Positions 1,720 to 53,540 of a DNA stretch of 64,000 nt are shown in pieces. Origin of the DNA: Parcubacteria bacterium C7867-007. Its GTDB lineage: Bacteria; Patescibacteriota; Minisyncoccia; Phycocordibacterales; Phycocordibacteraceae. Under the pieces are notes generated by a model. It ran no database searches and was not told the DNA's origin. It saw only the letters and a program-made list of their open reading frames with translations. A program made the translations under genes and the position numbers. How positions within the stretch are numbered: position 1 is the first letter of the stretch; each line of letters begins with the position of its first letter. The DNA lies in the NCBI GenBank assembly GCA_001189195.1, contig LFCQ01000003.1:71059-135058 (forward strand). Reading direction: 5' to 3'.

Positions 1720-1750
1720 AACCTCCGCATTGTGCGGAGGTTCTTTTATT
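1720..1750. terminator. Bidirectional rho-independent terminator between convergent genes.
   Basis: Hairpin aacctccgcattgtgcggaggtt followed by cttttatt; the A/T flank on the other side serves the minus-strand mltG. Confidence 0.6.
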
Positions 1751-2813
1751 TGCCTCGTCCGTAGTATTTCTTCAATAACTTAACGTGTCCTTCGTATGTG
1801 GGACTGCAGTGGAATTGGCTATCTGCATCATGGAAGTAGAAGAGACAATCTGTTTTCTTGGGATTGAGTGCCGCAACCACCGCAGCAACTGATGGGTTTG
1901 CTATAGGGCCCGGAGGAAGTCCTTTGTTTTGATACGTGTTGTATCGAGACTTTATATACTTATCCTTCGGTACCACAGGTGGCCACCATGTACCCTGTTT
2001 GCCGGTAGTGGCATTTGCCTTTGCGTATTGCAGTGTTGCATCAATCTGGAGATTCATTCCCAAGAATATACGATTCCAGATAATACCGGAGATAAGGCGC
2101 ATGTCATCCCAACCACCAGCTTCACGCTCGATAAGTGATGCAACCGTTAGGGCGTCTGCAACGGGAACTTGTTCTTCGGTACTCGTGCTGTACCGAGCAA
2201 GAATATCTTCTTGGAACCGATGATTTAGAAGGAGTTCAACATCATCAGGGTCAGTGACACTAAGGAAATAGGTACCAGGAACAAACTGTCCTTCAGGGAG
2301 ATCCGTATCACGCGCAGCAGCATGCTTCATGAATTCAGCACGCTCTGCTGCAGTCCAACCAAGGGTATCGCCTATGAGCTTTGCGACTTGTTCTTTTCTA
2401 TATCCGGGCTTAATAGTTATGAAAAGGGTATTTGCACCCGCTAGTTGGCGGTATGCAGGAATGTTAGAGATTGCCACCGCAACCTTGGTGAAAATATTGT
2501 CTGCCTGAATTGCAGCTGCAGTGAGAGAAGTTGGTTTGACATCAAGCAGAGCTTCAACCTGTGGGTTTTCAATAATAGTTTTGTTTGCAGGATCAACCGT
2601 AATGGTGAACTTAGGAGGAGGTGGGCGAACCGCATCTTGAATGGAAAGATCCACCACTAAGATGGTGGGTAGCGAAAAGAAACCGATCACGAGCACCAAT
2701 GTACTCGCCGCAACAGGGAGTATATTCAGTGCACGTTTCTTCGGCGATGAATTCTTGCGAGACGAACTAGTACCCTTGGGTATTAGCGAGCCGGGAAATT
2801 TCATCTGCGGCAT
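1746..2813 (-). CDS. mltG: Endolytic murein transglycosylase MltG (YceG family).
   Basis: N-terminal TM anchor. Hallmark motifs ASLIEREA and YNTYQNKGLPPGPIANP. YceG-like length and architecture. Confidence 0.9.
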   Translation of the reverse strand: MPQMKFPGSLIPKGTSSSRKNSSPKKRALNILPVAASTLVLVIGFFSLPTILVVDLSIQDAVRPPPPKFTITVDPANKTIIENPQVEALLDVKPTSLTAAAIQADNIFTKVAVAISNIPAYRQLAGANTLFITIKPGYRKEQVAKLIGDTLGWTAAERAEFMKHAAARDTDLPEGQFVPGTYFLSVTDPDDVELLLNHRFQEDILARYSTSTEEQVPVADALTVASLIEREAGGWDDMRLISGIIWNRIFLGMNLQIDATLQYAKANATTGKQGTWWPPVVPKDKYIKSRYNTYQNKGLPPGPIANPSVAAVVAALNPKKTDCLFYFHDADSQFHCSPTYEGHVKLLKKYYGRGK

Positions 2814-15780: not shown

Positions 15781-18669
15781 ATGGCAAAGAACCGTTTCGA
15801 TCATACAGAAATAGAGAAGAAAGCTCAGGAGAAATGGGCTGCGCTTGATCTGCATCAAACGGATCTCACAGATACCGAGAAGGATCCATACTATCTAATG
15901 TTTGAGTTCCCGTTTCCTTCGGGAGACCTCCATATAGGGCACTGGTATGCCTTTGCCCTCACAGACATTTATGCACGGTTCCTTCGCATGGCAGGGAAGA
16001 ACGTGCTTTTCCCTGTTGGTTTTGACTCCTTTGGTCTTCCTGCCGAGAACGCCGCAATGAAGAACGGGCAACCAACGCCCGAGTGGACGTACGCCGCTAT
16101 TGAGAAGATGCGTGGCCAGATGCGTTCTATGGGAACATCGGTAGATTGGAGCAAAGAGGTTATCACCTCAGACCCCGAATACTATAAGTGGACACAGTGG
16201 TTGTTCCTTAAACTCTTTGAGCATGGTCTTGCACAACACCGAGAAGCACCTGTTAAATGGTGTCCAAAAGATGCCACCGTACTTGCCAATGAACAGGTGA
16301 TTGATGGGAAGTGTGAGCGTTGCGGTACCGATGTTGAAGAGAAACACCTCACCCAGTGGTTCCTTAAGATCACTGATTATGCAGAGCGTCTCCTCACCGA
16401 TCTTGATCCACTTCCATGGCGTGAAGATATTAAAGAATCACAGCGTGCATGGATAGGGAAGTCAGAGGGAGCAAAGCTCAAGTTCCAGGTGGTGAGTGCA
16501 AAAGACGCATCAACACCCAATGATTCCGTAGCTATAGAAGTCTTCACAACACGTCCAGACACCATCTTCGGTGTTACGTATGTCGTACTCGCTCCTGAGC
16601 ACCCACTTATCGATACCCTTGAACCAGTTATTGCCAATGGTGAAGCGGTTGCTGAGTATCGTCAAACAACCTCGCGCAAGAGTGAGCGTGAACGCTCGGA
16701 GAACAAAGATAAGACTGGTGTACTCCTTGAAGGGGTTATGGCCATTAATCCTGCAACACACAAGGAGATTCCTGTATATGTAGCGGATTACGTACTTGCT
16801 TCATACGGTACCGGTGCCGTTATGGCAGTACCTGCGCATGACGAGCGTGATTTTGTATTTGCAAAGAAGTTCAACCTTCCAATCAAATACGTTATTGATC
16901 CAGTCACGGGATCTCCACAGGAGAATCCCCAAGATAAGCAGAAGATTGTAGCTATCGTTGAGCACGACAACAAAATCCTCACCATTCACTGGAAACCTGA
17001 ACTAGGGGGTCGTTTATTTGTTGGTGGTACCGCAGAAGAAGGTGAAGATCCTGTAGTAACTGCAATGCGTGAAATTGCTGAAGAAACCGGTTATACCGAT
17101 CTTGAGCTTATTGAACGTGCTGAGGAGCAAGTACATCACGAGTACTTTGCACACTCCAAGAACAAGGCATTTATCGCGCACACCACACTCCTTCATTTCC
17201 GCTTAAAGAGTGATGCACAGCAACCAACAGCTCTTGAAGATAATGAGATTGGAAAGTTTGAAGTTGAGTGGGTGACACGTGAGCAAGCCATAAAGGAAGT
17301 GAAGGATCCACTCCATCTCTACGCATTTAATAAGTTCGCTATGGGTATGTGCTACACCGGGGACGGTACCCTTTCAAACTCGGGAACCTTCAACGGACGC
17401 GATAACCGCGAAGTGATGGGAGAAATTGTTGAAGCAGTGGGTGGTGAGGTGACGACTAACTATCGTATACGAGATTGGCTTGTATCACGTCAGCGATACT
17501 GGGGCTGTCCAATACCGATCGTCTATGACCCTGAAGGGAATCCGCATGCGGTTCCCGCAGAACATCTCCCTTGGACCCTTCCAACCGATGTTGATTCCGG
17601 TTCAGGAAAGGGAGAGTCTCCACTTAAAGCATCAAAAGAACTTCAAGCACGTGTAGAGCAGATCTTCGGAGAAGGATGGACCCCAGAATGCGACACACTC
17701 GATGTGTTCGTAGATTCTTCATGGTACTTCCTGCGATACCTTGATCCCAAGGATGAGCATGACTTCTCAGACCAGGCACTTATGAAGAAGTGGTTGCCGG
17801 TGAATCGATACTCTGGTGGTAGCGAGCACACCACCGTGCACCTTCTCTATGCCCGTTTCTTCTACAAAGCGCTCTATGACCTCGGACTCGTTCCAACCTC
17901 TGAGCCATTCTATGAGCGATACAACCGTGGACTCGTACTAGACTCCGAAGGACGCAAGATGAGCAAGCGATGGGGCAACGTGGTGAACCCCGATGACATG
18001 GTGAAGCTCTATGGAGCAGATGCGGTGCGTATGTACCTCGCATTCATGGGTCCATACAACGAAGCAGGTCATTACCCATGGAAACTCACGGGTGTGGAAG
18101 CTATGCGAAAGTTCCTAGATCGTATCGTAACCCTATCGGGTCGCCTTTCTGATGAAGAGCCGACTGAGAATACCCTTCGTGCTCTCGCAAAGGCGGCAGA
18201 CAAGGTGGGCACAGACATTGTTCGCTTTAAGTACAACACAGCGATCTCTGCTCTTATGGTGCTTGTTAATGAACTTGAAACACTCACTGCTATACCTCGT
18301 ACTGCATACAGGGAGCTCATTACGATGCTCGCACCCTTCGCACCCCATGTATCAGAGTATTTGTATGAGAACAGCCTCCTCACGAGCTCTCACGCGGTAA
18401 ATGGTGATGAAGAGAGTGAAGTACCGAAGAGCGTACACCAGCTGGAGTGGCCAGTCATAGATGAATCCCTCCTCACCACTGAAACGATCATAATGGGAGT
18501 ACAGGTAGCGGGAAAACGACGGGGAGAAGTCTCTATTAGTCCCGAAGCAACCGAAGAAGAGGCTGTTGCAGCGGCACTTGCACAGCCAGATGTCCTCAAG
18601 TTCCTAGAAGGGGGTACACCAAGCAGGATTATCTACGTTCCAGGCCGTATCCTTAACCTAATACCCTAG
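15781..18669 (+). CDS. leuS: Leucyl-tRNA synthetase carrying an inserted Nudix-hydrolase domain.
   Basis: HIGH motif (HIGHWYAFALTD), CP1 editing domain (TTRPDTIFGV...AHDERDF) and KMSKS (KMSKRWGN). About 135 extra aa at roughly nt 16895-17345 contain a perfect Nudix box GGTAEEGEDPVVTAMREIAEETGY. Confidence 0.9.
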   Translation: MAKNRFDHTEIEKKAQEKWAALDLHQTDLTDTEKDPYYLMFEFPFPSGDLHIGHWYAFALTDIYARFLRMAGKNVLFPVGFDSFGLPAENAAMKNGQPTPEWTYAAIEKMRGQMRSMGTSVDWSKEVITSDPEYYKWTQWLFLKLFEHGLAQHREAPVKWCPKDATVLANEQVIDGKCERCGTDVEEKHLTQWFLKITDYAERLLTDLDPLPWREDIKESQRAWIGKSEGAKLKFQVVSAKDASTPNDSVAIEVFTTRPDTIFGVTYVVLAPEHPLIDTLEPVIANGEAVAEYRQTTSRKSERERSENKDKTGVLLEGVMAINPATHKEIPVYVADYVLASYGTGAVMAVPAHDERDFVFAKKFNLPIKYVIDPVTGSPQENPQDKQKIVAIVEHDNKILTIHWKPELGGRLFVGGTAEEGEDPVVTAMREIAEETGYTDLELIERAEEQVHHEYFAHSKNKAFIAHTTLLHFRLKSDAQQPTALEDNEIGKFEVEWVTREQAIKEVKDPLHLYAFNKFAMGMCYTGDGTLSNSGTFNGRDNREVMGEIVEAVGGEVTTNYRIRDWLVSRQRYWGCPIPIVYDPEGNPHAVPAEHLPWTLPTDVDSGSGKGESPLKASKELQARVEQIFGEGWTPECDTLDVFVDSSWYFLRYLDPKDEHDFSDQALMKKWLPVNRYSGGSEHTTVHLLYARFFYKALYDLGLVPTSEPFYERYNRGLVLDSEGRKMSKRWGNVVNPDDMVKLYGADAVRMYLAFMGPYNEAGHYPWKLTGVEAMRKFLDRIVTLSGRLSDEEPTENTLRALAKAADKVGTDIVRFKYNTAISALMVLVNELETLTAIPRTAYRELITMLAPFAPHVSEYLYENSLLTSSHAVNGDEESEVPKSVHQLEWPVIDESLLTTETIIMGVQVAGKRRGEVSISPEATEEEAVAAALAQPDVLKFLEGGTPSRIIYVPGRILNLIP

Positions 18670-44094: not shown

Positions 44095-45213
44095 TTGATT
44101 TATCAACTGTCTATGGCCGCAAAAAGCACCAAGAAAGCAGCACCTCAGAAGAAGACCGCCAGCAAGGCGGCTTCAAAGACGTCTACGGTGAAGCTCTCGT
44201 TCGACAGCACCGTGCTGGTAAAAAAGCTTCTTGCTGAAGTACCAGAGCGTGCCCGTGAGGTGCTGGTATACCGCTTTGGTCTTGGGGCCAGTGCAGACCG
44301 TGAGACACTTGAAGCTATTGGCGAACGCTGGAGCATCACGCGTGAGCGTGTACGCCAGATTGAGGCTGCTGGCCTAGACGCAATTCGCTCTTCTAAGGCG
44401 TTCAAGGATGCGGGAGCTGCATTCGACGATCTTAGCAATCACGTGCAGTCACTTGGCGCCATTGTTGAGGAAGATATCCTGCTCAAGGGACTTGCTGCTG
44501 ACGAAAAGGCACGTAATCGTTTCCGCTTCCTTCTCGTTGTAGGGAGTGCATTCTTCCGTGAACGTGAGACCGATGAGTTCTATGCTCGTTGGCACGTTGA
44601 TCATGCAACCGCACAGCTCGTGCACAAGGCCCTCACCCGCCTATACGCACAACTTTCAGATACTCAGGTACTTGCTGAGGGTGAAATGATGGATCGTTTC
44701 CTCGACGAACTTAAGGACATCAATGATGCATACCGAAACGAAGAGGTACTTAAGCGTTGGCTTTCTCTTTCGAAGACTATCTCTTCAAACCCTCTCGCTG
44801 AGTGGGGTCGTGCAGAAGCACCCGCTATCCGCACCAAGGGTATTCGTGACTACGCATACCTCGTAATCAAGCGTTCTGGTGCACCTATGCACTTCTCTGA
44901 TGTTGCAAAGTCTATTAGCCAGATGTTTGCAAAGGAAGCACATGTTGCAACCACTCATAACGAGCTGATCAAGGATGCTCGCTTCGTTCTCGTCGGTCGT
45001 GGCCTCTACGCACTATCTGAGTGGGGATACCAGCCGGGAGTTGTACGCGATGTTATTAAGACCGTACTTAAGAAAGAAGGCCCCCTTACGCGTGAACGCG
45101 TGATGGAAGAAGTGAAGAAGGTTCGATACGTGAAGGACAACACCATTCTTGTGAACCTTAACGATCCGCGATACTTCAAGCGCAATAAGAACGGTACCTA
45201 TACCGTAGCGTAA
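44095..45213 (+). CDS. Sigma-70 region-4 HTH fused to a C-terminal HARE-HTH domain.
   Basis: N-terminal VLVYRFGLGASADRETLEAIGERWSITRERVRQIEAAGL (sigma70_r4). C-terminal GAPMHFSDVAKSI...NELIKDARFVLVGRGLYALSEWGY (HARE-HTH pattern). The start may be the Met at 44113. Confidence 0.6.
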   Translation: MIYQLSMAAKSTKKAAPQKKTASKAASKTSTVKLSFDSTVLVKKLLAEVPERAREVLVYRFGLGASADRETLEAIGERWSITRERVRQIEAAGLDAIRSSKAFKDAGAAFDDLSNHVQSLGAIVEEDILLKGLAADEKARNRFRFLLVVGSAFFRERETDEFYARWHVDHATAQLVHKALTRLYAQLSDTQVLAEGEMMDRFLDELKDINDAYRNEEVLKRWLSLSKTISSNPLAEWGRAEAPAIRTKGIRDYAYLVIKRSGAPMHFSDVAKSISQMFAKEAHVATTHNELIKDARFVLVGRGLYALSEWGYQPGVVRDVIKTVLKKEGPLTRERVMEEVKKVRYVKDNTILVNLNDPRYFKRNKNGTYTVA

Positions 45214-45279: not shown

Positions 45280-46650
45280 ATGAACCCATCGGATCTTCCG
45301 TTGATGAAGCTGATAAAGAAGACGCACGGAAATCTTGCAGGCAAGGGTCACTTTATTGATTGGGAACCTATCGCATGGACCTTTGGAATCTTGAACGTTC
45401 TGTTTATCTTTCTTGATCTTGGGCAAGCACTACGCAACTTTGAGTTCCTTCTCTTCTTCGCACCCCTCTGGCTTCCCGCAATAACTATTTATGCTGCAGC
45501 CAATCGTGTGGTGCAGTATCGTCGTGCAAAGTTCCTCGCAAAACAGAAATACGTATTGCTGGAACTAAAACTTCCTCGAGACACTAAGAAAACACCTCTT
45601 GCCATGGAGCTCTTCTTCTCCAACATGCACTTTGGTCCTGGAGAGTCCACAAACTATAAGGTTTATAAGCTGGGTAACATCCGACCATGGTGGTCATTTG
45701 AAATCGTGTCTCTCGGTGGACAGGTGCATTTCTATATATGGACCCGTGAGGCACATCGTCGCGGTATTGAAAGCTATCTCTATTCTCAGTATCCAGACAT
45801 GGAAATCATTGAGGCACCGGACTATAGCCTTATAACTGATCCCTCAGATGATGATCACAGTCTCTTTGGTGAAGAGTTTGTAAAATCTATTCCTGATGAG
45901 AAGGGTAGTCCAGATCCCTATCCGATAAAAACATATATTGAATACGGCTTGGACAAACCAGGAACAAAGCCAGAGGAGCAAATTGATCCACTTGCGCAGG
46001 TGATTGAGCTCCTTGGCTCACTGGGTCCGAAAGAACAATTCTGGATACAGATTATTATTCGCCAATCCAAGAAGGAGAAGTACGGAGAAGACTGGAAGAA
46101 GGTTGGGCTTTCAGAAATAGCAAAGATCCGTGAAGCAACAAGGCAGAAAGGCTCGTATGTTGATCCAGCAACCGGCAAGAAGGTTGAAACGGACGGCTTC
46201 CCGAACCCAACCAAGGGCCAACTTGAAACGATTGCGGACATTGAACGCAATATTAATAAGGCAGGCTTTGATGTGGGTATCCGCACCATATACTCAGGAC
46301 CAAAGGATGCGTATCAAGGATTTATGGCAAGCTTTGTTCTTGCGCTTTGGAAACCATTCGCTAATGAAACAGGGGCATCAATAAAACAAACAGGATCATA
46401 CTCTGCAGGGTTTAATGATTATCCCTGGGAGGATCCAAAGCGACTTGCGCATGACTTCGTTGAGAGGAAGATCGTGAAGTTGTATCGTCGTCGTGCGTAC
46501 TTTAATCAACCGTATGTTGGTCCCTGGTCCATTATGAGTAGCGAGGAGTTGGCAACACTCTTCCATGTACCATCGAGTACCATCAACACACCGGGGCTCC
46601 CACGCATGCAGTCTTCAACCACAAGCGCACCATCAAATCTTCCTGTGTAG
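45280..46650 (+). CDS. Large hypothetical protein with an N-terminal TM segment.
   Basis: 456 aa; 2 TM near the N-terminus, then a soluble domain. No family recognised. Confidence 0.5.
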   Translation: MNPSDLPLMKLIKKTHGNLAGKGHFIDWEPIAWTFGILNVLFIFLDLGQALRNFEFLLFFAPLWLPAITIYAAANRVVQYRRAKFLAKQKYVLLELKLPRDTKKTPLAMELFFSNMHFGPGESTNYKVYKLGNIRPWWSFEIVSLGGQVHFYIWTREAHRRGIESYLYSQYPDMEIIEAPDYSLITDPSDDDHSLFGEEFVKSIPDEKGSPDPYPIKTYIEYGLDKPGTKPEEQIDPLAQVIELLGSLGPKEQFWIQIIIRQSKKEKYGEDWKKVGLSEIAKIREATRQKGSYVDPATGKKVETDGFPNPTKGQLETIADIERNINKAGFDVGIRTIYSGPKDAYQGFMASFVLALWKPFANETGASIKQTGSYSAGFNDYPWEDPKRLAHDFVERKIVKLYRRRAYFNQPYVGPWSIMSSEELATLFHVPSSTINTPGLPRMQSSTTSAPSNLPV

Positions 46651-46651
46651 C

Positions 46652-47668
46652 ATGAGTATGCAAGAACAAATGCGAGTGCGTGCAGTACTGGTTCGCGCTC
46701 ATATTGACTCCCTTCTCAGAAGAACACCTAAAGCATATCTAGCAATACTCGCAGGGATGTTCATGGTGATATTCGTTCCGCTTTCAATTCTCTTTGTACC
46801 GTCATTCCAGTTTCCAAAAGGAGCATTGATTTCAATTCCTGCAAATAGTACCAGTGAAGAAATAGCAGAGCTGCTTGAGGATCAATACGTCATACGTAGT
46901 GCATTCCAGTTCCGTGTGTATACCCGACTCACGGGTGAAGACCGTGCTCTGCAATCGGGTATCTACGTGTTTGATCAGACACTGGGACTTGCGAGTATTG
47001 CACACCGTATTGCAAACGGGGAACACGGCATAGAAGAAACACGTGTCACCCTCACTGAGGGTATGACCAATCAAGACATGGCACGCACTCTTGCCGCTAC
47101 AGTTCCTGGTTTCGATACAAAGGAATTTCTTAAACACGCATCAACCAGCCAGGGGTATTTATTCCCTGATACGTACTTCATTCTCCCTGGCACTACTCCA
47201 GAAGAGATGGTTATGCGTTTGCGCGAGCACTTTGATACAAAAGTATCAACAATCCAAACGGAAATAGATGATTCAGGCAAGTCGCTTGATGCACTGGTGA
47301 CACTCGCATCAATACTTGAACGCGAAGCTCAGGGCATTGAAGATATGCGCATGGTTGCAGGTATTCTATACAATCGCCTACGCATAGATATGCCCCTGCA
47401 AGTGGATGCAGTATTTGGATACATACATGGAGAAAACGGATATACCCCAACCGCAGCAGATCTTGCAAGTGATTCTCCATACAATACGTATCGTGTGAAA
47501 GGCCTTCCTCCTAGCCCTATAGCTAATCCTGGGCTTGATGCACTTCGTGCAGCGGCAACCCCTACAAAATCTACGTATCTGTATTATTTAACAGGCAAGG
47601 ATGGCAAGATGCGCTACGCACGAACATTTGAAGAACATAAGCGCAACCGGGAGTTGTATTTAGATTAG
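46652..47668 (+). CDS. mltG: Second MltG/YceG-family endolytic transglycosylase.
   Basis: LASILEREAQG and YRVKGLPPSPIANPG motifs, N-terminal TM. Start taken at the Met just after the upstream stop. Confidence 0.85.
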   Translation: MSMQEQMRVRAVLVRAHIDSLLRRTPKAYLAILAGMFMVIFVPLSILFVPSFQFPKGALISIPANSTSEEIAELLEDQYVIRSAFQFRVYTRLTGEDRALQSGIYVFDQTLGLASIAHRIANGEHGIEETRVTLTEGMTNQDMARTLAATVPGFDTKEFLKHASTSQGYLFPDTYFILPGTTPEEMVMRLREHFDTKVSTIQTEIDDSGKSLDALVTLASILEREAQGIEDMRMVAGILYNRLRIDMPLQVDAVFGYIHGENGYTPTAADLASDSPYNTYRVKGLPPSPIANPGLDALRAAATPTKSTYLYYLTGKDGKMRYARTFEEHKRNRELYLD

Positions 47669-47693
47669 GTTCGATCCCTAGTCTGCCAGCAAA
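47667..47693 (+). repeat. tRNA 3'-half-like variant of the 30-nt repeat family (AGGTTCGATCCCTAGTCTGCCAGCAAA), overlapping the mltG stop codon.
   Basis: GGTTCGATCC T-loop-like start; TCTGCCAGCAAA is identical to the end of the array copies. Confidence 0.5.
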
Positions 47694-47716
47694 TCTTGCG
47701 TGCTAGCATACACAAC

Positions 47717-48112: not shown

Positions 48113-48141
48113 AGGTTCCAACATCGTCGCAGACTGCCAGC
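48113..48141 (+). repeat. Array repeat copy A (AGGTTCCAACATCGTCGCAGACTGCCAGC), directly after the stop of the membrane-protein gene.
   Basis: One of four near-identical copies at 48113, 48561, 48849 and 49058. Confidence 0.8.
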
Positions 48142-48142
48142 G

Positions 48143-48179
48143 ACAAAAGCAAAAGTCGCCCGATGGAATTCGGGCGACC
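48143..48179 (-). terminator. Minus-strand rho-independent terminator of array unit 3.
   Basis: Hairpin gtcgcccgaattccatcgggcgac followed on the minus strand by ttttgcttttg. Confidence 0.7.
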
Positions 48180-48206
48180 ACAAACAGGAAGTCCAGATCA
48201 GCTGGT

Positions 48207-48509
48207 TTACACAGCAATCTGTTGCGGAATGATCTGCACCCCGTTCCGCTGAGCAGGAATGTGGGCAAGGTCGGCAGGATCTTCGTACTGAACGACGATG
48301 ACCCATCCATGGTCATCGAGACGAAGTCCACCCCATTTTGTGAGTTGAAGAGGAAGAATCTCGAACAGGCGTGCCTGCACAACCTCCGCTACCTCATACG
48401 GGATGGGTTCAGGAAGAGAGATGGGTTCTCGCCTCCTGATGGCGACATGCACGGGAATTGAGAGCAAGGCGGCGAGCAATAGGATGTGCCAAGGTTCCAA
48501 TTGACCCAT
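48207..48509 (-). CDS. Small membrane-anchored protein, 100 aa, encoded inside repeat-array unit 3.
   Basis: ATG with a GGAGG Shine-Dalgarno 7 nt upstream. N-terminal TM WHILLLAALLSIPVHVAI, then a soluble domain. The ORF track starts it at an upstream TTG (48521). Confidence 0.5.
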   Translation of the reverse strand: MGQLEPWHILLLAALLSIPVHVAIRRREPISLPEPIPYEVAEVVQARLFEILPLQLTKWGGLRLDDHGWVIVVQYEDPADLAHIPAQRNGVQIIPQQIAV

Positions 48510-48540
48510 AGGGGCCTCCAATGATTGTTTCTAGGTGCAC

Positions 48541-48569
48541 TATATACGCAGTATGAACAAAGTCCCAAC
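48541..48569 (-). promoter_or_regulatory. Putative minus-strand promoter of array unit 3 (TTGGGA-16-TATATA).
   Basis: The -35 element overlaps the end of repeat copy B; the -10 is TATATA at 48546..48541. Confidence 0.35.
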
Positions 48570-48588
48570 ATCGTCCCAGACTGCCAGC
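48561..48588 (+). repeat. Array repeat copy B (AGTCCCAACATCGTCCCAGACTGCCAGC).
   Basis: 27 of 28 identical to the consensus. Confidence 0.8.
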
Positions 48589-48595
48589 AAATAAA

Positions 48596-48627
48596 TTCAT
48601 AAAAGAAAAACGCATCCGAAGATGCGT
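48596..48627 (-). terminator. Minus-strand rho-independent terminator of array unit 2.
   Basis: Hairpin acgcatcttcggatgcgt followed on the minus strand by ttttcttttatg. Confidence 0.75.
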
Positions 48628-48810
48628 CTGAAAACGGAGAAGAGCAGGAAGATGTGCTCTCCTGATGGAACCTTAAACAGACAACCGCGCCTACGGGCCT
48701 CCACTTAGGTGGGGAGGAACCAAGGCCATCTTTGTGACCTCAGGTCTGATCTCAGGTGCAACGGGCCATGAACCCCGTTGGGCAAGTTGGCATCTTCTCT
48801 TCCGCCTATC
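48600..48810 (-). ncRNA. Candidate non-coding RNA (array unit 2), about 210 nt, with its own promoter and terminator.
   Basis: Several stable hairpins (caacggg/cccgttg; ggaga.../...tctcc). No ORF longer than 13 aa with an RBS. Bounded by a promoter and an intrinsic terminator. Confidence 0.4.
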
Positions 48811-48817
48811 CGTTAGC

Positions 48818-48845
48818 ACCTTACCAAATCAGGTGTGCCGGTCAA
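48818..48845 (-). promoter_or_regulatory. Putative minus-strand sigma70 promoter of array unit 2 (TTGACC-16-TAAGGT).
   Basis: -35 at 48845..48840 and -10 at 48823..48818, immediately downstream (minus sense) of repeat copy C. Confidence 0.4.
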
Positions 48846-48848
48846 TCT

Positions 48849-48876
48849 GGTTCCAACATCGTCCCAGACGGCCAGC
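48849..48876 (+). repeat. Array repeat copy C (GGTTCCAACATCGTCCCAGACGGCCAGC).
   Basis: Near-identical to copies A, B and D. Confidence 0.8.
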
Positions 48877-48878
48877 TA

Positions 48879-48919
48879 TAAATAAAGAAAACCCCTTCCA
48901 TGACATTGGTCGGGGTTTT
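48879..48919 (-). terminator. Minus-strand rho-independent terminator of array unit 1.
   Basis: Hairpin aaaacccc...ggggtttt followed on the minus strand by ctttatttat. Confidence 0.65.
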
Positions 48920-49016
48920 GCACTGGATTTTGGTACACCAGTGTTCTCTCTTCGTGTCTTGTCAGGACAGTGCCAATGGGGGCATTGGAACGAGAGGCCA
49001 CATTAACTACAGTGGT
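48880..49016 (-). ncRNA. Candidate non-coding RNA (array unit 1), about 135 nt.
   Basis: Driven by a near-consensus promoter. Contains hairpins (ccaatgcccccattgg). No plausible ORF. Ends at an intrinsic terminator. Confidence 0.4.
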
Positions 49017-49022
49017 AAATCC

Positions 49023-49051
49023 ATCATAACAGCACAGATACTGTTTGTCAA
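49023..49051 (-). promoter_or_regulatory. Minus-strand sigma70 promoter of array unit 1 (TTGACA-17-TATGAT).
   Basis: -35 TTGACA at 49051..49046, 17-nt spacer, -10 TATGAT at 49028..49023, immediately after repeat copy D. Confidence 0.55.
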
Positions 49052-49057
49052 TAGTCC

Positions 49058-49085
49058 GGTTCCAACATTGTCCCAGACTGTCAGG
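49058..49085 (+). repeat. Array repeat copy D (GGTTCCAACATTGTCCCAGACTGTCAGG).
   Basis: 25 of 28 match the consensus. Confidence 0.75.
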
Positions 49086-49116
49086 AATAGAAAAACGCCA
49101 ACACAGAGTGAAGGCG
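49086..49116 (-). terminator. Minus-strand terminator-like hairpin of array unit 0.
   Basis: Hairpin aagcgccttcactctgtgttggcgtt followed on the minus strand by tttttctatt. The stem is imperfect. Confidence 0.45.
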
Positions 49117-49280
49117 CTTTAGTGGCTTGTAAGCCAAATATGCATGGAGTGTTAACTCTCCACGGGGCTAGCCAGTATGGGTCCCATATCCATACCGCGT
49201 CTGGATTCCGTGGAGATCCGATCCGACCTGAGCTTCTTACATCCCCAACCATCACTACACTAGCAACGGTAGCTCCAAGA
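49095..49280 (-). ncRNA. Candidate structured non-coding RNA (array unit 0), about 180 nt.
   Basis: Nested perfect stems (tctccacgg...ccgtggaga; ccag-gtatgg...ccatac-ctgg). Putative promoter TTGACA at 49309..49304. The only ORF runs through the terminator, repeat and promoter, so it is rejected. Confidence 0.35.
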
Positions 49281-49369
49281 GCAATTTAACCAAATAGTGT
49301 ATTTGTCAATAGTAGTATCAGTTACAGCATATTTCCAGACCTCTAATTAAAAGGTGGTATTGTTTTACT

Positions 49370-49807
49370 ATGAACGTAAAGGAATTCTCTAAAGCATACT
49401 TCTGGCCAACAAAACTACGGGTACTCGTATTCATAGTGCTGAGTATCTACGTAACTCTTAGTACATTGTTCCTTGCGCCGTTTATGAGCAAGGAGCTCGC
49501 ACCCCAGGAACTCACGGGGCTAGAGCAAGCAGGAATTGTTGCAACATACCCTGCAAAGGTGTTTGCTCAGTCATTCATATATATTTCTTCACACTTCCTT
49601 GCTGAGAAAGTAACTCTAAGAGAATTGATGGAGCAACCGAGCAATACCGGACTACCCGTTACTCCCAACGCATCAATAGAGAGCGCCACTATCACCCAAG
49701 CAAGCCCAATCGGATTTGCAACCGGTGCAATACTTGAATCTCTCACACTCTATCTTCTTGCGTGTTTAATCTCATTTGCACAAAAGCCAAGGAAAAAGAC
49801 TGTGTAG
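49370..49807 (+). CDS. Membrane protein, 2-3 TM.
   Basis: 145-aa ORF with an N-terminal TM LRVLVFIVLSIYVTLSTLFLA and a C-terminal TM. Confidence 0.45.
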   Translation: MNVKEFSKAYFWPTKLRVLVFIVLSIYVTLSTLFLAPFMSKELAPQELTGLEQAGIVATYPAKVFAQSFIYISSHFLAEKVTLRELMEQPSNTGLPVTPNASIESATITQASPIGFATGAILESLTLYLLACLISFAQKPRKKTV

Positions 49808-49836
49808 AAATCGGTTGTTTAGGGTATGGTATCGCT

Positions 49837-50877
49837 ATGGATTCCATAGCAGGCAAGAACATATTTGTAGGACTATCTGGAGGCGTGGACTCTGCGGTTT
49901 CTGCTGCGCTCCTACAAAAACAAGGTGCTGAGGTAACAGGGGTTTTCATTAAGGGATGGTATCCCCCTGGTATGCCGTGTACCTGGGCACAAGATCGTCG
50001 CGATGCCATGCGGGTCGCAGCACACCTCGGTATTCCATTTCATACTCTTGATGCATCAAAAGAATACAAGCAGGGAGTTATCGACTATCTGATCTCTGAA
50101 TACGCTGCAGGAAGAACACCTAACCCAGATATCATGTGCAATCGTGAGGTTAAGTTCGGAGCCTTCTATCGCTTTGCAAAAGAGCACGGTGCAGACTTCA
50201 TAGCTACAGGCCACTACGCACAGGCGAGGGAGGGTAGTCTAATGCGTGGTGTAGACAGCTCAAAGGACCAAAGCTATTTCTTGTGGGCAGTACCTAAAGA
50301 AGCAATGACACAAACTCTTTTCCCCGTTGGCGGAATACCTAAAAGAGAAGTGCGTATTCTCGCACAAAAGTTTGATCTTCCTGTTGCAGAAAAGAAGGAT
50401 AGTCAGGGAATATGTTTCCTTGGTTCCATTTCTGTTGATGAGTTTCTTAGAAAGGAACTGGAAACAACCGGAGGTGACGTGCTCGATGAGGAAGGAAAGA
50501 AGATTGGTACCCATGATGGTGCCGTGCTGCACACCCTTGGAGAACGTATTGTTCCTCATGGAGCAGAAAGTGGTCCTTGGTATGTAATACGGAAAGATCT
50601 CAACACGAACACACTAACAGTGCGCCATGGAAACGCTGCGCTGGAGGTGCCACCCAATACATTGAAGCTCCGTGAGACTAACTGGTTTAATACAGAAGCT
50701 CTCATGGGAACGATTCAGGCGCAGTATCGCTATCACGGTACAGTGATTACTGGGAGTTTCGATCTAGAAACCAATACCTTCACTCCTGAAGGATCCTTTA
50801 AAGAACCTGTTGCGTCCGGACAATCACTTGTCTTGTATCTTGGGGATACCTGTTTGGGGGGTGGTATCATCGAGTAA
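49837..50877 (+). CDS. mnmA: tRNA-specific 2-thiouridylase MnmA.
   Basis: PP-loop IFVGLSGGVDSAV and the MnmA catalytic Cys region (GICFLG). Start taken at the internal Met MDSIAGKN. Confidence 0.9.
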   Translation: MDSIAGKNIFVGLSGGVDSAVSAALLQKQGAEVTGVFIKGWYPPGMPCTWAQDRRDAMRVAAHLGIPFHTLDASKEYKQGVIDYLISEYAAGRTPNPDIMCNREVKFGAFYRFAKEHGADFIATGHYAQAREGSLMRGVDSSKDQSYFLWAVPKEAMTQTLFPVGGIPKREVRILAQKFDLPVAEKKDSQGICFLGSISVDEFLRKELETTGGDVLDEEGKKIGTHDGAVLHTLGERIVPHGAESGPWYVIRKDLNTNTLTVRHGNAALEVPPNTLKLRETNWFNTEALMGTIQAQYRYHGTVITGSFDLETNTFTPEGSFKEPVASGQSLVLYLGDTCLGGGIIE

Positions 50878-51708
50878 ATGCCAGACATCGTTAAAGCAGA
50901 CGGGACCATTGAAACATTCGTTCCTGAAAAACTAGAGGAGTCCCTGCGTCGTGCCGGTGCTGGTGCAGGTGCTGCAGAGAAGATCCGTCGCACCATTGAA
51001 GCAAGTATTGCTCCTGGTTCAGAGAGTAGCGATATATATAAGCGTGCGTTCCAGATGCTCCGTCGCGAAGGACGGGCTGCAGCAGCCCGCTATAGCTTGC
51101 GTCGTGCACTGTTTGAGTTTGGTCCTTCTGGCCATCCTTTCGAGGACTTTGTTTCAGAACTCTTTAAGAAAGAGGGGTGGAAGATTGAGACCCGTCGTTT
51201 GATTCCTGGAAAGTGCGTCACTCATGAGGTGGATGTATATGCGACACGGGGTAACGAGACGTTAGCGGCGGAGCTTAAGTATCATAATGACCCAGGGTAC
51301 AAAACAGATGTGAAGGTGGCTTTGTATGTGAAAGCACGCTTCGATGATATCTGGCAGTGTGATCCTGCGGTGGATAAATCGTGTCCTATTGATCGTGGAT
51401 ACCTCGTCACCAACACAAAGTTCACGTCACAGGCAGTGGATTACGCAACGTGTTCTGGATTAAATCTGCTTGGGTGGAGTTATCCGCATCATGGAAATCT
51501 CTATGACCGCATCATTGCGAGCGGTCTCTATCCGATCACTGCTCTCACCACACTCCGCAAGGCAGAGAAGCGCCTTCTTATCGATAGGAATATCTCCACC
51601 ACTGATCTGCTCAGACAGCATCGTGAACTGTTGCGTGAAATTGGAGTGACCCCAGAACGTGTGGGTTCTATCATCGCCGAAATAGAGACTTTGAACGATA
51701 CCCATTAG
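50878..51708 (+). CDS. ATP-cone domain fused to an Mrr-like (PD-(D/E)xK) restriction-endonuclease domain.
   Basis: N-terminal MPDIVKADGTIETFVPEKLEESLRRAG (ATP-cone pattern). Central FEDFVSELFKKEGWKIE...HEVDVYA...AELKYH (Mrr_cat-like D/E-x-K). About 100 aa of C-terminal extension. Confidence 0.55.
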   Translation: MPDIVKADGTIETFVPEKLEESLRRAGAGAGAAEKIRRTIEASIAPGSESSDIYKRAFQMLRREGRAAAARYSLRRALFEFGPSGHPFEDFVSELFKKEGWKIETRRLIPGKCVTHEVDVYATRGNETLAAELKYHNDPGYKTDVKVALYVKARFDDIWQCDPAVDKSCPIDRGYLVTNTKFTSQAVDYATCSGLNLLGWSYPHHGNLYDRIIASGLYPITALTTLRKAEKRLLIDRNISTTDLLRQHRELLREIGVTPERVGSIIAEIETLNDTH

Positions 51709-51728
51709 AGCAGTTATACTAGAGGTAT

Positions 51729-52523
51729 ATGGCAGAGTTCCGCAAGCAATACAATCCAAACCGTAGTTCAGACTGGAACTATGGTGGTTCTAAGTGGCGT
51801 CTCTCACGCTCAAAGATTGAGCTCTTCACAGAATGTCCTCGCTGCTTCTATTTAGATAACAAACTTGGTACCGCACGTCCTCGTGGTCCTGCCTTCACTC
51901 TTAACATTGCAGTTGATGCGCTTCTTAAGAAGGAGTTTGATGTACACCGTATAGACGGAACGAAGCATCCCCTCATGGAGACATACGACATCAATGCCGT
52001 ACCGTTCAAACATAAGAACATGAACACGTGGCGTGAGAACTTTGAAGGTGTGGAGTTCAAACACAAAGAAACAGGCTTCACTATTTCAGGTGCAGTGGAT
52101 GATATCTGGGTTAATCCCGCAGGTGAATTGATCGTGGTGGATTATAAAGCAACGTCTAAAGAAGGAACGATCACCACACTCGCAGACTCATCGTGGAACG
52201 AACAGTATCAACGACAAATGGGAGTGTATCAGTGGCTCCTTCGTAACAACGGCTTTACGGTTTCTCCTATGGGCTATTTTGTGTATGCAAATGCGCACAG
52301 CGATAAGTCCGCCTTTGATGGACAATTGGAGTTTGAAGTAACGGTGGTTCCCTGTGAAGGGAATACTGATTGGATTGATGACGTACTTCCCAAGATAAAG
52401 GAAACTCTAGAAAGTGGAGCCCTACCGCCAGTGGGGGAAGGGTGTGAGTACTGCGTATATCGGGAAGCTTCAGGAAAGAAGTTGCAGGAGATACACAAAA
52501 AGAGTTTGCAGGTGCAGAAGTAG
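51729..52523 (+). CDS. PD-(D/E)xK nuclease with Cas4/AddB-type cysteines (RecB-family exonuclease-like).
   Basis: N-terminal CPRC, catalytic core VDDIW...LIVVDYKAT (D...D/E-Y-K) and C-terminal CEYC. No cas genes nearby. Confidence 0.55.
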   Translation: MAEFRKQYNPNRSSDWNYGGSKWRLSRSKIELFTECPRCFYLDNKLGTARPRGPAFTLNIAVDALLKKEFDVHRIDGTKHPLMETYDINAVPFKHKNMNTWRENFEGVEFKHKETGFTISGAVDDIWVNPAGELIVVDYKATSKEGTITTLADSSWNEQYQRQMGVYQWLLRNNGFTVSPMGYFVYANAHSDKSAFDGQLEFEVTVVPCEGNTDWIDDVLPKIKETLESGALPPVGEGCEYCVYREASGKKLQEIHKKSLQVQK

Positions 52524-52534
52524 GGTAAACGAAA

Positions 52535-52557
52535 CCCCGCGCAAGCGCGGGGCCAAT
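52535..52557 (-). terminator. Minus-strand terminator hairpin between convergent genes.
   Basis: ccccgcgcaagcgcgggg, followed on the minus strand by tttcgtttac. Confidence 0.5.
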
Positions 52558-52569
52558 ACGTAGAGACTC

Positions 52570-52791
52570 CTACTTCGTTTCTCTTAGAAGCGGGAGTCCT
52601 GCTTCACGAACGTACACCTTCCCTTGAATCACCATGTGGCTATAGGGAGGTACAAATGCGAGTAGTGCACGAGCGTCCTCGATCGTGTGCACCATTGAGA
52701 CAATTGATACTGCTGGATCCTGCGCTTGAGTCTGCAGATACTGTGCTGCAAGATTTCTGTCAGGTTCGAAGATAAGAACGTTTTTGTCCAT
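52570..52791 (-). CDS. Small hypothetical protein.
   Basis: 73-aa ORF with a terminator downstream; no family recognised. Confidence 0.3.
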   Translation of the reverse strand: MDKNVLIFEPDRNLAAQYLQTQAQDPAVSIVSMVHTIEDARALLAFVPPYSHMVIQGKVYVREAGLPLLRETK

Positions 52792-52871: not shown

Positions 52872-53540
52872 ATGGAAGTGAAGATTGAAGAGTCTTGGAA
52901 GAGTCATCTGAAGGATGAGTTTGATAAACCTTATTTCAAAGCGCTCACCACTTTTGTAAAAGAAGAGTATACAAAGACAACGGTATATCCTGCACCAAAG
53001 AGTATATTCCGTGCATTTGAGCTAACACCGTTTGAACAAGTGAAGGTGGTGATTCTTGGACAAGATCCATACCATGGCCCCAAACAAGCTATCGGACTCT
53101 CTTTTGCAGTGAGTGAAGGAGTGCGTAATCCACCATCTCTCCAAAACATCTTCAAAGAGTTAGAGAGCGACTTGGGTGTGCCACTTGTACACACTGATGG
53201 CGACTTAACCCGCTGGGCAGAACAAGGTGTTCTCCTACTAAACGCCACCCTCACTGTACGTGCTGCATCTGCTGGCTCACACCAAGGAAAAGGATGGGAG
53301 CAGTTCACTGATGCGGTAATACAGAAACTCTCAGATGGACGTGAGCACTTAGTATTTATTCTTTGGGGCAACTACGCGCGAGCTAAGGGTGCACACATTG
53401 ATCGTTCTAAGCATCTTGTTATTGAATCTGCACACCCCTCTCCATTCTCTGCGCACAATGGGTTCTTTGGATCAAAACCATTTAGCAAAGCAAACGAATA
53501 CCTGAAGATACAGGGAGAAAAACCTATTAATTGGCTATAG
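52872..53540 (+). CDS. ung: Uracil-DNA glycosylase, family 1.
   Basis: Water-activating loop GQDPYHGP, LLLNATLTV and the HPSPFSA (HPSPLS-like) motif. Confidence 0.9.
   Translation: MEVKIEESWKSHLKDEFDKPYFKALTTFVKEEYTKTTVYPAPKSIFRAFELTPFEQVKVVILGQDPYHGPKQAIGLSFAVSEGVRNPPSLQNIFKELESDLGVPLVHTDGDLTRWAEQGVLLLNATLTVRAASAGSHQGKGWEQFTDAVIQKLSDGREHLVFILWGNYARAKGAHIDRSKHLVIESAHPSPFSAHNGFFGSKPFSKANEYLKIQGEKPINWL

What the first reader, a model, noticed from the sequence alone, without database searches (positions are those of the whole stretch)
50878..52523. Adjacent stand-alone nucleases: ATP-cone-Mrr-like endonuclease and a Cas4/AddB-like Fe-S PD-(D/E)xK nuclease
Gene 1 fuses an ATP-cone (an allosteric ATP/dATP sensor, as in NrdR or RNR) to an Mrr-type restriction-endonuclease catalytic domain (HEVDVYA...ELKYH).

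Gene 2, 20 nt downstream, is a PD-(D/E)xK nuclease with Cys pairs at both ends (CPRC...CEYC) reminiscent of the Cas4/AddB Fe-S cluster. No cas, RM methyltransferase or helicase partners are present.

A nucleotide-sensing endonuclease next to an end-processing nuclease could be a minimal nucleotide-pool-gated DNA-degradation or defence module. Alternatively it is a housekeeping repair pair (the genes sit before ung).
Basis: partly seen in the sequence, partly recalled or inferred. Interest (0 to 1): 0.55.

Follow-up and report, generated by a model that had tools for sequence, protein, structure and literature searches.

The report
Conserved housekeeping nuclease pair in Patescibacteria
Two real, strongly conserved nuclease genes (an ATP-cone-regulated endonuclease and a Cas4-like nuclease) sit in an ancient housekeeping gene array next to DNA-repair genes in tiny CPR bacteria, so they look like core DNA-maintenance enzymes of unknown exact role, not a phage-defence module.

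Summary
Gene 1 (50878-51708) has an ATP-cone, an AF1548/Mrr-type PD-(D/E)xK nuclease and an AF1548-like C-terminal domain. Gene 2 (51729-52523) is a RecB/Cas4-type nuclease with four invariant cysteines.

The window comes from Parcubacteria bacterium C7867-007 (Patescibacteria).

The defence reading is not supported:
- Both genes are single-copy in the window.
- They evolve more slowly than the flanking mnmA and ung.
- They lie in a collinear array, mltG-mnmA-g1-(DUF7282-MgtC)-g2-(ogt)-UDG-...-alaS, kept across distant Patescibacteria.
- There are no defence, cas, methyltransferase or phage links.

The tightest links are mnmA-g1 and g2-ogt-UDG. The UDG slot is filled by two different UDG families. 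g1 and g2 are often separated by unrelated genes, and g1 persists without g2.

Outside the phylum, g1 relatives repeatedly sit beside a beta-CASP nuclease, a nucleoside/AMP-phosphorylase-family gene and a PRPP synthetase.

Best reading: g1 is a housekeeping endonuclease gated by adenine nucleotides, and g2 is a solo Cas4-like repair exonuclease. They are loosely rather than obligately paired. Neither has been characterised biochemically. Interest is moderate.

The parts
49762..50877 (+). mnmA (tRNA 2-thiouridylase). It is the conserved upstream neighbour, and its stop codon abuts the g1 start (TAA-ATG).
   Evidence: Pfam tRNA_Me_trans 236 bits. Directly upstream of g1 in 42/42 close and 43/53 distant loci.
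50878..51708 (+). Gene 1 (AB202_00680): ATP-cone + AF1548/Mrr-type PD-(D/E)xK endonuclease + AF1548-like C-terminal helical domain.
50887..51105 (+). ATP-cone domain of gene 1 (residues 4-76). K6 and G9 are invariant; F14, K18 and S22 are nearly invariant across the family.
   Evidence: Pfam 24.9 bits against a gathering score of 25.8. N-terminal profile against NrdR, E 0.003. Foldseek matches to NrdR/RNR cones. Conservation.
51127..51468 (+). PD-(D/E)xK nuclease core of gene 1 (residues 84-197). Catalytic E117, D119, E132 and K134 are invariant in 41 diverse family members.
   Evidence: Mrr_cat 24.3 bits, above the gathering score of 21. Aligns to AF1548, whose D38/E51/K53 were predicted to be catalytic (PMC1821046). 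Invariants.
51529..51687 (+). AF1548-like C-terminal domain of gene 1 (residues 218-270). Probably a helix-hairpin-helix-type nucleic-acid-binding domain; this is inferred.
   Evidence: PF22357 weak hit. Alignment to 1Y88 runs through residue 270. Model pLDDT is 82-92 here.
51729..52523 (+). Gene 2 (AB202_00685): solo Cas4-like RecB-family PD-(D/E)xK nuclease. It has a 2+2 cysteine cluster (C36, C39, C239, C242) and the motifs D124/D125, D138-x-K140 and Q163-xxx-Y167.
   Evidence: All listed residues are invariant in 77 sequences.
52535..52552 (.). GC-rich hairpin (CCCCGCG-caag-CGCGGGG) between the convergent g2 and a small minus-strand ORF. Possibly a bidirectional terminator that closes the mnmA-g1-g2 unit.
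   Evidence: Read directly from the sequence. The simple terminator scan did not report it because there is no T-run on the + strand.
52872..53540 (+). ung (family-1 uracil-DNA glycosylase), the conserved downstream neighbour.
   Evidence: Pfam UDG. Present downstream in 39/39 close loci. Distant loci carry either family-1 Ung (9) or a family-4-like UDG (10) in the same slot, out of 29.

Best explanation
These are two vertically inherited, strongly constrained housekeeping nucleases of Patescibacteria. They lie in an ancient collinear array: mltG-mnmA-g1-(DUF7282-MgtC)-g2-(ogt)-UDG-...-alaS. They are not a defence system.

Gene 1 belongs to a large uncharacterised family of about 280 residues. 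An N-terminal ATP-cone is fused to an AF1548-type PD-(D/E)xK endonuclease and a C-terminal helical nucleic-acid-binding domain.

Inferred mechanism for gene 1: the ATP-cone binds ATP or dATP and, as in RNR and NrdR, changes the oligomeric state. This switches the endonuclease on or off, so that incision of nucleic acid follows the adenine-nucleotide or dNTP pool.

Gene 2 is a solo Cas4-like RecB-family nuclease. It probably holds an Fe-S or metal cluster on four cysteines arranged 2+2. Its conserved neighbours are an O6-alkylguanine alkyltransferase and a uracil-DNA glycosylase.

Inferred mechanism for gene 2: it is a 5'-to-3' exonuclease that trims ends, flaps or 5'-dRP residues left by base-damage repair.

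Shown: domain architecture, catalytic-residue conservation, synteny, and the lack of defence context. Inferred: nucleotide gating, substrates, and any cooperation between g1 and g2. The gene order suggests loose rather than obligate pairing.
For: Architecture: for g1; for g2.

Family breadth: 1,051 clusters at 50% identity, 410 of them with E<=1e-30. Of the 150 best listed, nearly all are full-length proteins of about 280 aa. E117, D119, E132, K134, K6 and G9 are invariant.

Housekeeping locus:
- mnmA upstream in 42/42 and 43/53 loci; g2 downstream in 37/39 and 25/41.
- Downstream order is g2-ogt-UDG-alaS. In the distant set of 29 loci, g2 is present in 23, ogt in 21 and a UDG in 19. Of those 19, nine are family 1 and ten are family-4-like, which indicates non-orthologous displacement in one slot.
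- The ogt product keeps the PCHR active site.

Constraint:
- Median identity across 44 species: g1 70%, g2 75%, ung 75%, mnmA 62%, mltG 46%.
- dN against the sister genome: g1 0.025, g2 0.044, ung 0.10, mnmA 0.15.

No defence signal:
- The neighbours are holB, a sigma factor, mltG, M16 peptidases and alaS.
- PADLOC gave no defence-system call on ten neighbours; its only hit was a local match of the sigma-factor-like ORF to MzaA.
- No repeat arrays and no phage hits.

Literature: solo-Cas4 was already reported as over-represented and vertically inherited in CPR genomes, with unknown function (PMC5704561).
Against: No biochemical data exist for either family; the literature searches found none.

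Conserved synteny in these reduced genomes also links clearly unrelated genes (mltG, mnmA, MgtC, alaS). Adjacency to ogt and UDG may therefore be historical rather than functional.

The window protein's ATP-cone score is just below Pfam's cut-off, and nucleotide binding is untested.

Outside Patescibacteria, g1's neighbours point to nucleotide catabolism or salvage rather than repair.

The g1 model is only moderately confident (pLDDT 68.5).
Confidence: 0.5

Rival explanations
1. Nucleotide-salvage module. g1 is an endonuclease gated by ATP or dATP that opens DNA (imported, or the cell's own damaged DNA) or RNA. A partner exonuclease then reduces it to mononucleotides. The partner would be g2 in Patescibacteria and a beta-CASP enzyme in other phyla. 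The products feed (deoxy)nucleotide salvage, which matters for CPR bacteria said to lack de novo nucleotide synthesis (my background knowledge, not tested here).
For: - A g1-betaCASP MBL-thymidine/AMP-phosphorylase-family-PRPP synthetase cluster occurs in Pontibacter (Bacteroidota) and Criblamydia (Chlamydiota) plasmids and in metagenomic locus L137.
- The MBL gene is also adjacent in L048/49 and L095, and remnants of the cluster remain in L046/47.
- Usp and PPK2 genes lie nearby.
- An HD-domain 5'-deoxynucleotidase (YfbR-like) lies directly after g1 in L059, and its only cluster-mate is the first gene after g1 in L107.
- An ATP-cone is a natural dNTP-pool sensor.
Against: - In Patescibacteria none of the salvage genes (MBL, TP, PRS) lies near g1. 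The conserved neighbours there are repair genes and mnmA.
- g1 and g2 are frequently separated by DUF7282 and MgtC genes.
- The cluster was seen in only about 6 of roughly 16 non-CPR contexts examined.
Confidence: 0.25
2. No functional pairing, and g1 acts on RNA or tRNA. Under this reading g1 belongs with mnmA, for example in tRNA or RNA turnover or quality control. Its proximity to g2 is leftover synteny.
For: - mnmA-g1 is the most persistent adjacency (42/42 and 43/53 loci), with stop and start codons abutting.
- The partner in other phyla is closest to beta-CASP RNases such as aCPSF1.
- AMP-phosphorylase-like and PRPP synthetase genes act on ribonucleotides.
- Unrelated genes are inserted between g1 and g2.
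Against: - mnmA is never next to g1 outside Patescibacteria.
- mltG-mnmA adjacency is equally conserved although those two genes are functionally unrelated.
- A restriction-endonuclease fold with an AF1548 C-terminal domain is more typical of DNA enzymes; this is an inference.
Confidence: 0.15
3. Anti-phage or anti-plasmid defence module. A nucleotide-sensing endonuclease plus an end-processing nuclease degrades invading or self DNA when nucleotide pools are disturbed.
For: - Mrr_cat and Cas4-like domains are common in defence systems.
- g2 hits PADLOC Cas4 models (E 7e-11).
- PycTM-domain proteins neighbour g1 relatives in L095 and L118.
- Two g1 relatives are plasmid-borne.
Against: - The locus is syntenic and housekeeping across the phylum.
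- dN is lower than in mnmA and ung.
- There is no methyltransferase, cas gene, helicase or other defence gene, no arrays and no phage homologues.
- g1's own PADLOC hits are insignificant (E 0.006 and 0.05).
Confidence: 0.05

Closest known systems
AF1548 of Archaeoglobus fulgidus (PDB 1Y88) / Pfam Mrr_cat + AF1548-like_C
   Same: Residues 91-270 of g1 align to it with E 6e-26 and Foldseek E 6e-9. It has the same D...E-x-K catalytic triad, predicted in PMC1821046, and the same C-terminal domain.
   Different: The deposited 199-residue AF1548 chain aligns only to g1 residues 91-270, so it has no counterpart of the N-terminal ATP-cone. It has no known function, so membership gives a fold and an active site but not a role.
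ATP-cone regulatory domains of ribonucleotide reductases and NrdR
   Same: The N-terminal domain of about 75 residues matches in sequence and fold. The N-terminal hairpin and helix residues K6, G9, F14 and K18 are conserved. It probably works in the same way, through ATP/dATP-dependent oligomerisation.
   Different: The output domain is a nuclease, not a reductase or a zinc-ribbon repressor. No ATP-cone-controlled nuclease turned up in the searched literature.
Ligand-gated PD-(D/E)xK nucleases such as Can2/Card1 (CARF + nuclease)
   Same: The logic is the same: an adenine-nucleotide-sensing domain fused to a restriction-endonuclease-fold nuclease. There is a weak Foldseek match to Can2 (probability 0.41).
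   Different: The sensor differs (ATP-cone rather than CARF). There is no CRISPR or CBASS context, and the locus is housekeeping. This is an analogy of mechanism, not membership.
Mrr / type IV restriction endonucleases
   Same: The catalytic domain passes the Mrr_cat Pfam threshold.
   Different: Pfam reported no N-terminal modified-DNA-recognition domain on g1 at E<=1. There is no R-M context. Distribution is vertical and syntenic rather than patchy.
Solo Cas4 / RecB-family Fe-S nucleases (Cas4, AddB, AdnA/B, Exo5, MGME1)
   Same: g2 shares the fold and the RecB motifs (D, D-x-K, Q-xxx-Y). It has four invariant cysteines at the positions where Cas4 binds its cluster. Solo Cas4 is known to be enriched and vertically inherited in CPR genomes (PMC5704561).
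   Different: g2 scores below the Cas4 model cut-offs. Its cysteines are arranged 2+2 (CxxC...CxxC) instead of 1+3; the 1+3 pattern for SSO0001-type Cas4 is from my own knowledge. It has no cas1/cas2, CRISPR array or helicase partner. Its conserved neighbours are ogt and UDG.

Membership tests
ATP-cone (PF03477) | Score at or above the Pfam gathering threshold | tested here: inconclusive
   The window protein scores 24.9 bits against a gathering score of 25.8. Many close and distant family members carry a precomputed PF03477 hit.
ATP-cone (PF03477) | Fold and sequence similarity to solved ATP-cones | tested here: met
   The N-terminal profile hits NrdR (E 0.003) and anaerobic RNR (E 0.009). 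The Foldseek probability to NrdR/RNR cones is about 1.0, with TM-score of about 0.43 normalised to the target.
ATP-cone (PF03477) | Conserved nucleotide-contacting residues, and actual ATP/dATP binding | not testable with these tools
   K6 and G9 are invariant; F14, K18 and S22 are nearly invariant. Their equivalence to RNR K9/E15/K21 rests on my memory of RNR structures. Binding needs biochemistry.
AF1548-like / Mrr_cat PD-(D/E)xK endonuclease | Homology to the family, and an intact D...E-x-K catalytic motif | tested here: met
   1Y88 E 6e-26. Mrr_cat 24.3 bits, above the gathering score of 21. E117, D119, E132 and K134 are invariant in 41 diverse sequences.
Type IV restriction enzyme (Mrr) / restriction-modification system | DNA-modification-reading N-terminal domain, or a cognate methyltransferase or specificity gene nearby | tested here: not met
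   The N-terminus is an ATP-cone. The neighbours are mnmA, g2, ung, mltG and peptidases.
CRISPR-associated Cas4 | Score above the curated Cas4 model cut-offs | tested here: not met
   TIGR00372 scores 34.1 against 65. PF01930 scores 20.7 against 22.7.
CRISPR-associated Cas4 | Adjacency to cas1/cas2 or a CRISPR array | tested here: not met
   No repeat arrays in the window. No cas genes among the neighbours. The same non-cas context is seen in 39 close and 29 distant evaluable loci.
RecB-family (PDDEXK_1) Fe-S nucleases | RecB nuclease motifs and four cluster-binding cysteines | tested here: met
   PDDEXK_1 56 bits. D124, D125, D138, K140, Q163, Y167, C36, C39, C239 and C242 are invariant in 77 sequences. 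The cysteine spacing is 2+2 rather than the canonical 1+3. The identity of the cluster is not testable here.
AddAB / AdnAB / RecBCD end-resection machines | Nuclease domain fused to, or encoded beside, a SF1 helicase | tested here: not met
   g2 is a stand-alone 264-aa protein. No helicase was found among the 20 window ORFs scanned in Pfam.
Anti-phage defence island | Neighbourhood enriched in known defence genes; patchy, mobile distribution | tested here: not met
   PADLOC on ten neighbours gave only a local MzaA-like match on a sigma-factor-like ORF. The locus is syntenic across the phylum. No phage hits.

The most novel reading that the evidence does not exclude
The g1 family would be the first ATP-cone-controlled nuclease: a core enzyme that licenses cutting of DNA (or RNA) according to the ATP/dATP pool. 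In Patescibacteria it would be wired into uracil and alkyl-damage repair, with the Cas4-like g2, Ogt and UDG. In Bacteroidota and Chlamydiota it would be wired into a nucleic-acid-to-nucleotide salvage and stress cluster, with a beta-CASP nuclease, a nucleoside/AMP phosphorylase and a PRPP synthetase. That would extend ATP-cone allostery beyond ribonucleotide reduction. It would also give solo Cas4 in small genomes a concrete repair role.
Probability: 0.3. Interest if true: 0.65.

Novelty: new variant of a known kind. Interest (0 to 1): 0.4.

Why it matters
As far as I know, ATP-cones have so far been studied almost only as regulators of ribonucleotide reduction (RNRs and NrdR). A large, strongly constrained family that couples an ATP-cone to a nuclease would show that the dATP/ATP sensor also gates nucleic-acid cleavage.

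For Patescibacteria, two of the slowest-evolving genes in this block have no assigned role. Defining them would fill a gap in how these minimal cells repair uracil and alkyl damage or recycle nucleotides. It would also address the open question, raised in 2017 (PMC5704561), of what solo Cas4 does in small genomes.

The finding does not reveal a new defence system.

Tried and rejected
- **Defence module:** rejected on synteny, evolutionary constraint, PADLOC and phage searches.
- **True Cas4 or CRISPR link:** rejected.
- **R-M system:** rejected, since there is no methyltransferase.
- **Obligate two-gene operon:** weakened. DUF7282 and MgtC insertions separate the genes, and some loci lack g2.
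- **Rfam scans of the region:** nothing found.
- **Promoter and terminator scan:** counts were no better than shuffled sequence.
- **The listing of cluster members on ten distant g1 relatives:** returned no organism names.
- **Literature searches** for AF1548, ATP-cone plus nuclease or endonuclease, the NCBI product name, and CPR base-excision repair: no characterisation found. The only relevant items were the 2007 GOS prediction and the 2017 Cas4 phylogenomics paper.
- **dN/dS ratios:** not used, because dS is saturated. Only dN is compared.
Full report
**What is there**

The window is from Parcubacteria bacterium C7867-007 (Patescibacteria/CPR). The two ORFs are its loci AB202_00680 and AB202_00685. 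They lie at 50878-51708 and 51729-52523 on the + strand, 20 nt apart. The g1 start directly follows the mnmA stop codon.

**Gene 1 domains**

- Pfam finds an ATP-cone at residues 4-76. It scores 24.9 bits, marginally below the gathering score of 25.8.
- Pfam finds Mrr_cat at residues 84-197, scoring 24.3 bits against a gathering score of 21.
- Pfam finds a weak AF1548-like_C match at residues 218-270.
- Residues 91-270 are clearly homologous to the solved structural-genomics protein AF1548 (1Y88, E 6e-26). Foldseek agrees (E 6e-9).
- The catalytic D/E/K residues of AF1548 were predicted in the GOS paper (PMC1821046). They align with g1 D119, E132 and K134.
- A profile of the N-terminal 80 residues finds NrdR and anaerobic-RNR ATP-cones. 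The AF2 model's N-terminus superposes on NrdR/RNR cones.

**Gene 2 domains**

- Gene 2 is a PDDEXK_1 protein (56 bits). It scores below the cut-offs of the Cas4 models.
- Its AF2 model (pLDDT 78) matches the nuclease domains of AdnA, Cas4, AddB, MGME1, RecE and Exo5, and the Argonaute-associated ACE1.
- In 77 sequences spanning the phylum, these residues are invariant: C36, C39, C239, C242, D63, E69, D124, D125, D138, K140, Q163 and Y167.
- The cysteines align with the cluster ligands of Pyrobaculum Cas4, but their spacing is CxxC...CxxC.

**How widespread and how constrained**

- A full HMMER scan of 1.84 billion cluster representatives finds 1,051 g1 relatives. Of these, 410 have E<=1e-30. 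Of the 150 best listed, almost all are about 280 aa and match over the full length, so the three-part architecture is the unit of conservation.
- Across 41 diverse members, K6, G9, E117, D119, E132 and K134 are invariant.
- In 44 species-level Paceibacteria genomes, median identity to the window proteins is: g1 70%, g2 75%, ung 75%, mnmA 62% and mltG 46%.
- Against the sister genome, dN is 0.025 for g1 and 0.044 for g2, compared with 0.10 for ung and 0.15 for mnmA. dS is saturated, so ratios are not used.
- Both genes are single-copy in the window.

**Gene neighbourhood in Patescibacteria**

In the close set:
- mnmA is directly upstream of g1 in 42 of 42 evaluable loci.
- g2 is within 3 kb downstream in 37 of 39, and within 200 bp in 32.
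- Family-1 ung follows in 39 of 39, and alaS in 33 of 39.

In 80 metagenomic loci whose g1 is only 39-51% identical:
- mnmA is still directly upstream in 43 of 53 evaluable loci.
- g2 is within 3 kb in 25 of 41, but immediately adjacent in only 10.

The genes inserted between g1 and g2 are a DUF7282 protein (19 loci) and an MgtC-family membrane protein (8 loci between them; 12 counting all downstream positions).

Downstream of g2 the order is strikingly regular:
- First comes a 93-residue O6-alkylguanine-DNA alkyltransferase domain that keeps the IPCHRV active site.
- Next comes a uracil-DNA glycosylase, and later alaS.
- In the distant set of 29 evaluable loci, 23 have g2, 21 have ogt and 19 have a UDG.
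- Of those 19 UDGs, nine are family-1 Ung and ten are an unrelated family-4-like UDG of about 200 aa in the same slot.
- g1 can be followed directly by UDG when g2 is missing (L024, L030, L058).

The window itself has no ogt. In its place is a non-conserved 73-aa minus-strand ORF and a GC hairpin at 52535-52552.

**Gene neighbourhood outside Patescibacteria**

The family also occurs in Bacteroidota and Chlamydiota. There g1 has neither mnmA nor g2 beside it.

The recurrent neighbour is a beta-CASP metallo-beta-lactamase nuclease, seen in L048/49, L095, L132, L133 and L137.

In three independent cases it is followed by two further genes:
- a roughly 505-aa thymidine-phosphorylase-family protein (PRK04350/TIGR02645, the sibling of AMP phosphorylase);
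- a PRK07199-type ribose-phosphate diphosphokinase.

The three cases are a Pontibacter plasmid, a Criblamydia plasmid and L137. Degenerate remnants occur in Crocinitomicaceae.

Usp, PPK2, P-type ATPases and carbon-reserve genes (glgP, phosphoketolase, acetate kinase) lie around these clusters. Other contexts are heterogeneous.

**Interpretation**

The defence hypothesis fails on distribution, constraint and context:
- The window around the pair encodes holB, a sigma factor, mltG, mnmA, ung, M16 peptidases and alaS, plus ATP synthase, LeuRS, pyruvate kinase and a MurA-like protein.
- PADLOC finds nothing relevant in the neighbours.
- There are no arrays and no phage homologues.

The evidence fits two core nucleases.

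For g2, the conserved g2-ogt-UDG trio argues for a role in processing base-damage repair intermediates. The replacement of one UDG family by another in the same slot strengthens this. It agrees with the earlier observation that solo Cas4 is vertically inherited and enriched in CPR genomes (PMC5704561).

For g1, three things support an endonuclease gated by adenine nucleotides:
- the invariant catalytic residues;
- the conserved ATP-cone;
- the recurrent pairing with a second nuclease and nucleotide-metabolism genes in other phyla.

Whether its physiological output is repair incision, nucleotide salvage or RNA turnover cannot be decided from sequence.

One caution matters. This array also keeps plainly unrelated genes in order (mltG, mnmA, MgtC, alaS). 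Synteny alone is therefore weak evidence for g1-g2 cooperation. The pair in this window is best seen as two neighbours in a conserved housekeeping block. They may act in the same pathway, but they are not a dedicated two-gene system.

**Comparison with known systems, and novelty**

- g1 is a member of the AF1548/Mrr_cat nuclease family, with a canonical-looking ATP-cone.
- g1 is not an Mrr-type restriction enzyme.
- It works like a ligand-gated PD-(D/E)xK nuclease such as Can2/Card1, but it is not a member of that family.
- g2 is a RecB-family, solo Cas4-like nuclease. It is not a CRISPR Cas4 and not part of an AddAB-type machine.
- Both architectures are already present in databases: NCBI names include 'ATP cone domain-containing protein', 'restriction endonuclease' and 'PD-(D/E)XK nuclease family protein'.
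- No functional study was found in the searched literature.

I rate it a new variant of known kinds, of moderate interest.

Noticed in passing
window 48113-49369 (copies at 48116, 48563, 48851, 49060; partial copy at 47677-47694): An ORF-poor 1.25-kb stretch holds four same-strand copies of the motif TTCCAACATCGTCCCAGACTGCCAGC, where none is expected by chance. Each copy is followed by an A-rich run, and in several copies I read a GC hairpin after that. The same motif, more than 90% identical, occurs in other Paceibacteria loci: L001 three times, L002 at the syntenic mltG-mnmA spacer, and L008. There is no Rfam match. It could be a conserved regulatory or terminator-associated element, or a small-RNA or small-gene family.
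   Followed up: partly
window 15781-18669 (+): The leucyl-tRNA synthetase (962 aa) carries an inserted NUDIX hydrolase domain at residues 391-505, after the editing domain.
   Followed up: no
loci L006, L011, L014, L016, L018, L021-L023, L025, L026, L032-L034, L038, L043, L044 compared with the other L001-L044 loci: g2 exists in two deeply diverged forms at the same chromosomal slot. One form is about 75-93% identical to the window protein and the other about 46-56%. Identities of g1 and mnmA are the same in both groups. All catalytic and cysteine residues are retained. This suggests in-situ replacement or ancient paralogues.
   Followed up: partly
L052, L054, L058, L059, L069, L072, L092, L099, L106, L120, L127 (UDG4 type) compared with the window 52872-53540 and L056, L057, L064 and others (family-1 Ung): The UDG slot downstream of g2/ogt is filled either by family-1 Ung or by an unrelated family-4-like UDG of about 200 aa with a GEAPG motif. 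A minimal 93-aa Ogt domain with an intact PCHR site usually lies between g2 and the UDG.
   Followed up: yes
L132 (Pontibacter actiniarum plasmid NZ_CP021236), L133 (Criblamydia sequanensis plasmid NZ_LK031773), L137: A conserved four-gene cluster spans phyla: ATP-cone nuclease, beta-CASP MBL nuclease, thymidine/AMP-phosphorylase-family protein, and PRPP-synthetase-family protein. It is flanked by Usp, PPK2, P-type ATPase, glgP, phosphoketolase and acetate kinase genes. It looks like an uncharacterised stress or nucleotide-catabolism island.
   Followed up: partly
L095 5826-6401 and L118 4164-4748: Proteins of about 190 aa with a PycTM (Pycsar effector transmembrane) domain lie directly next to g1 relatives in two non-CPR loci. 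One is downstream and the other upstream.
   Followed up: no
window 52570-52791 (-) and 52535-52552: A 73-aa minus-strand ORF sits between g2 and ung. It has no Pfam match and only a weak 33% match in the sister genome. It occupies the slot where many relatives have ogt. A 7-bp GC hairpin lies between it and g2.
   Followed up: partly
window 1746-2813 (-): A second, divergent YceG/MltG-like ORF is present. A tblastn search with the window's mltG product matches 1779-2927 on the minus strand at 28% identity, E 1e-30. This is in addition to the syntenic mltG at 46565-47668.
   Followed up: no
window 44095-45213 (+): A 372-aa protein combines sigma-70 region 4 with a HARE-HTH domain. Its region-4 part gives a local PADLOC match to MzaA (E 6e-8), which is probably just the shared HTH.
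   Followed up: no
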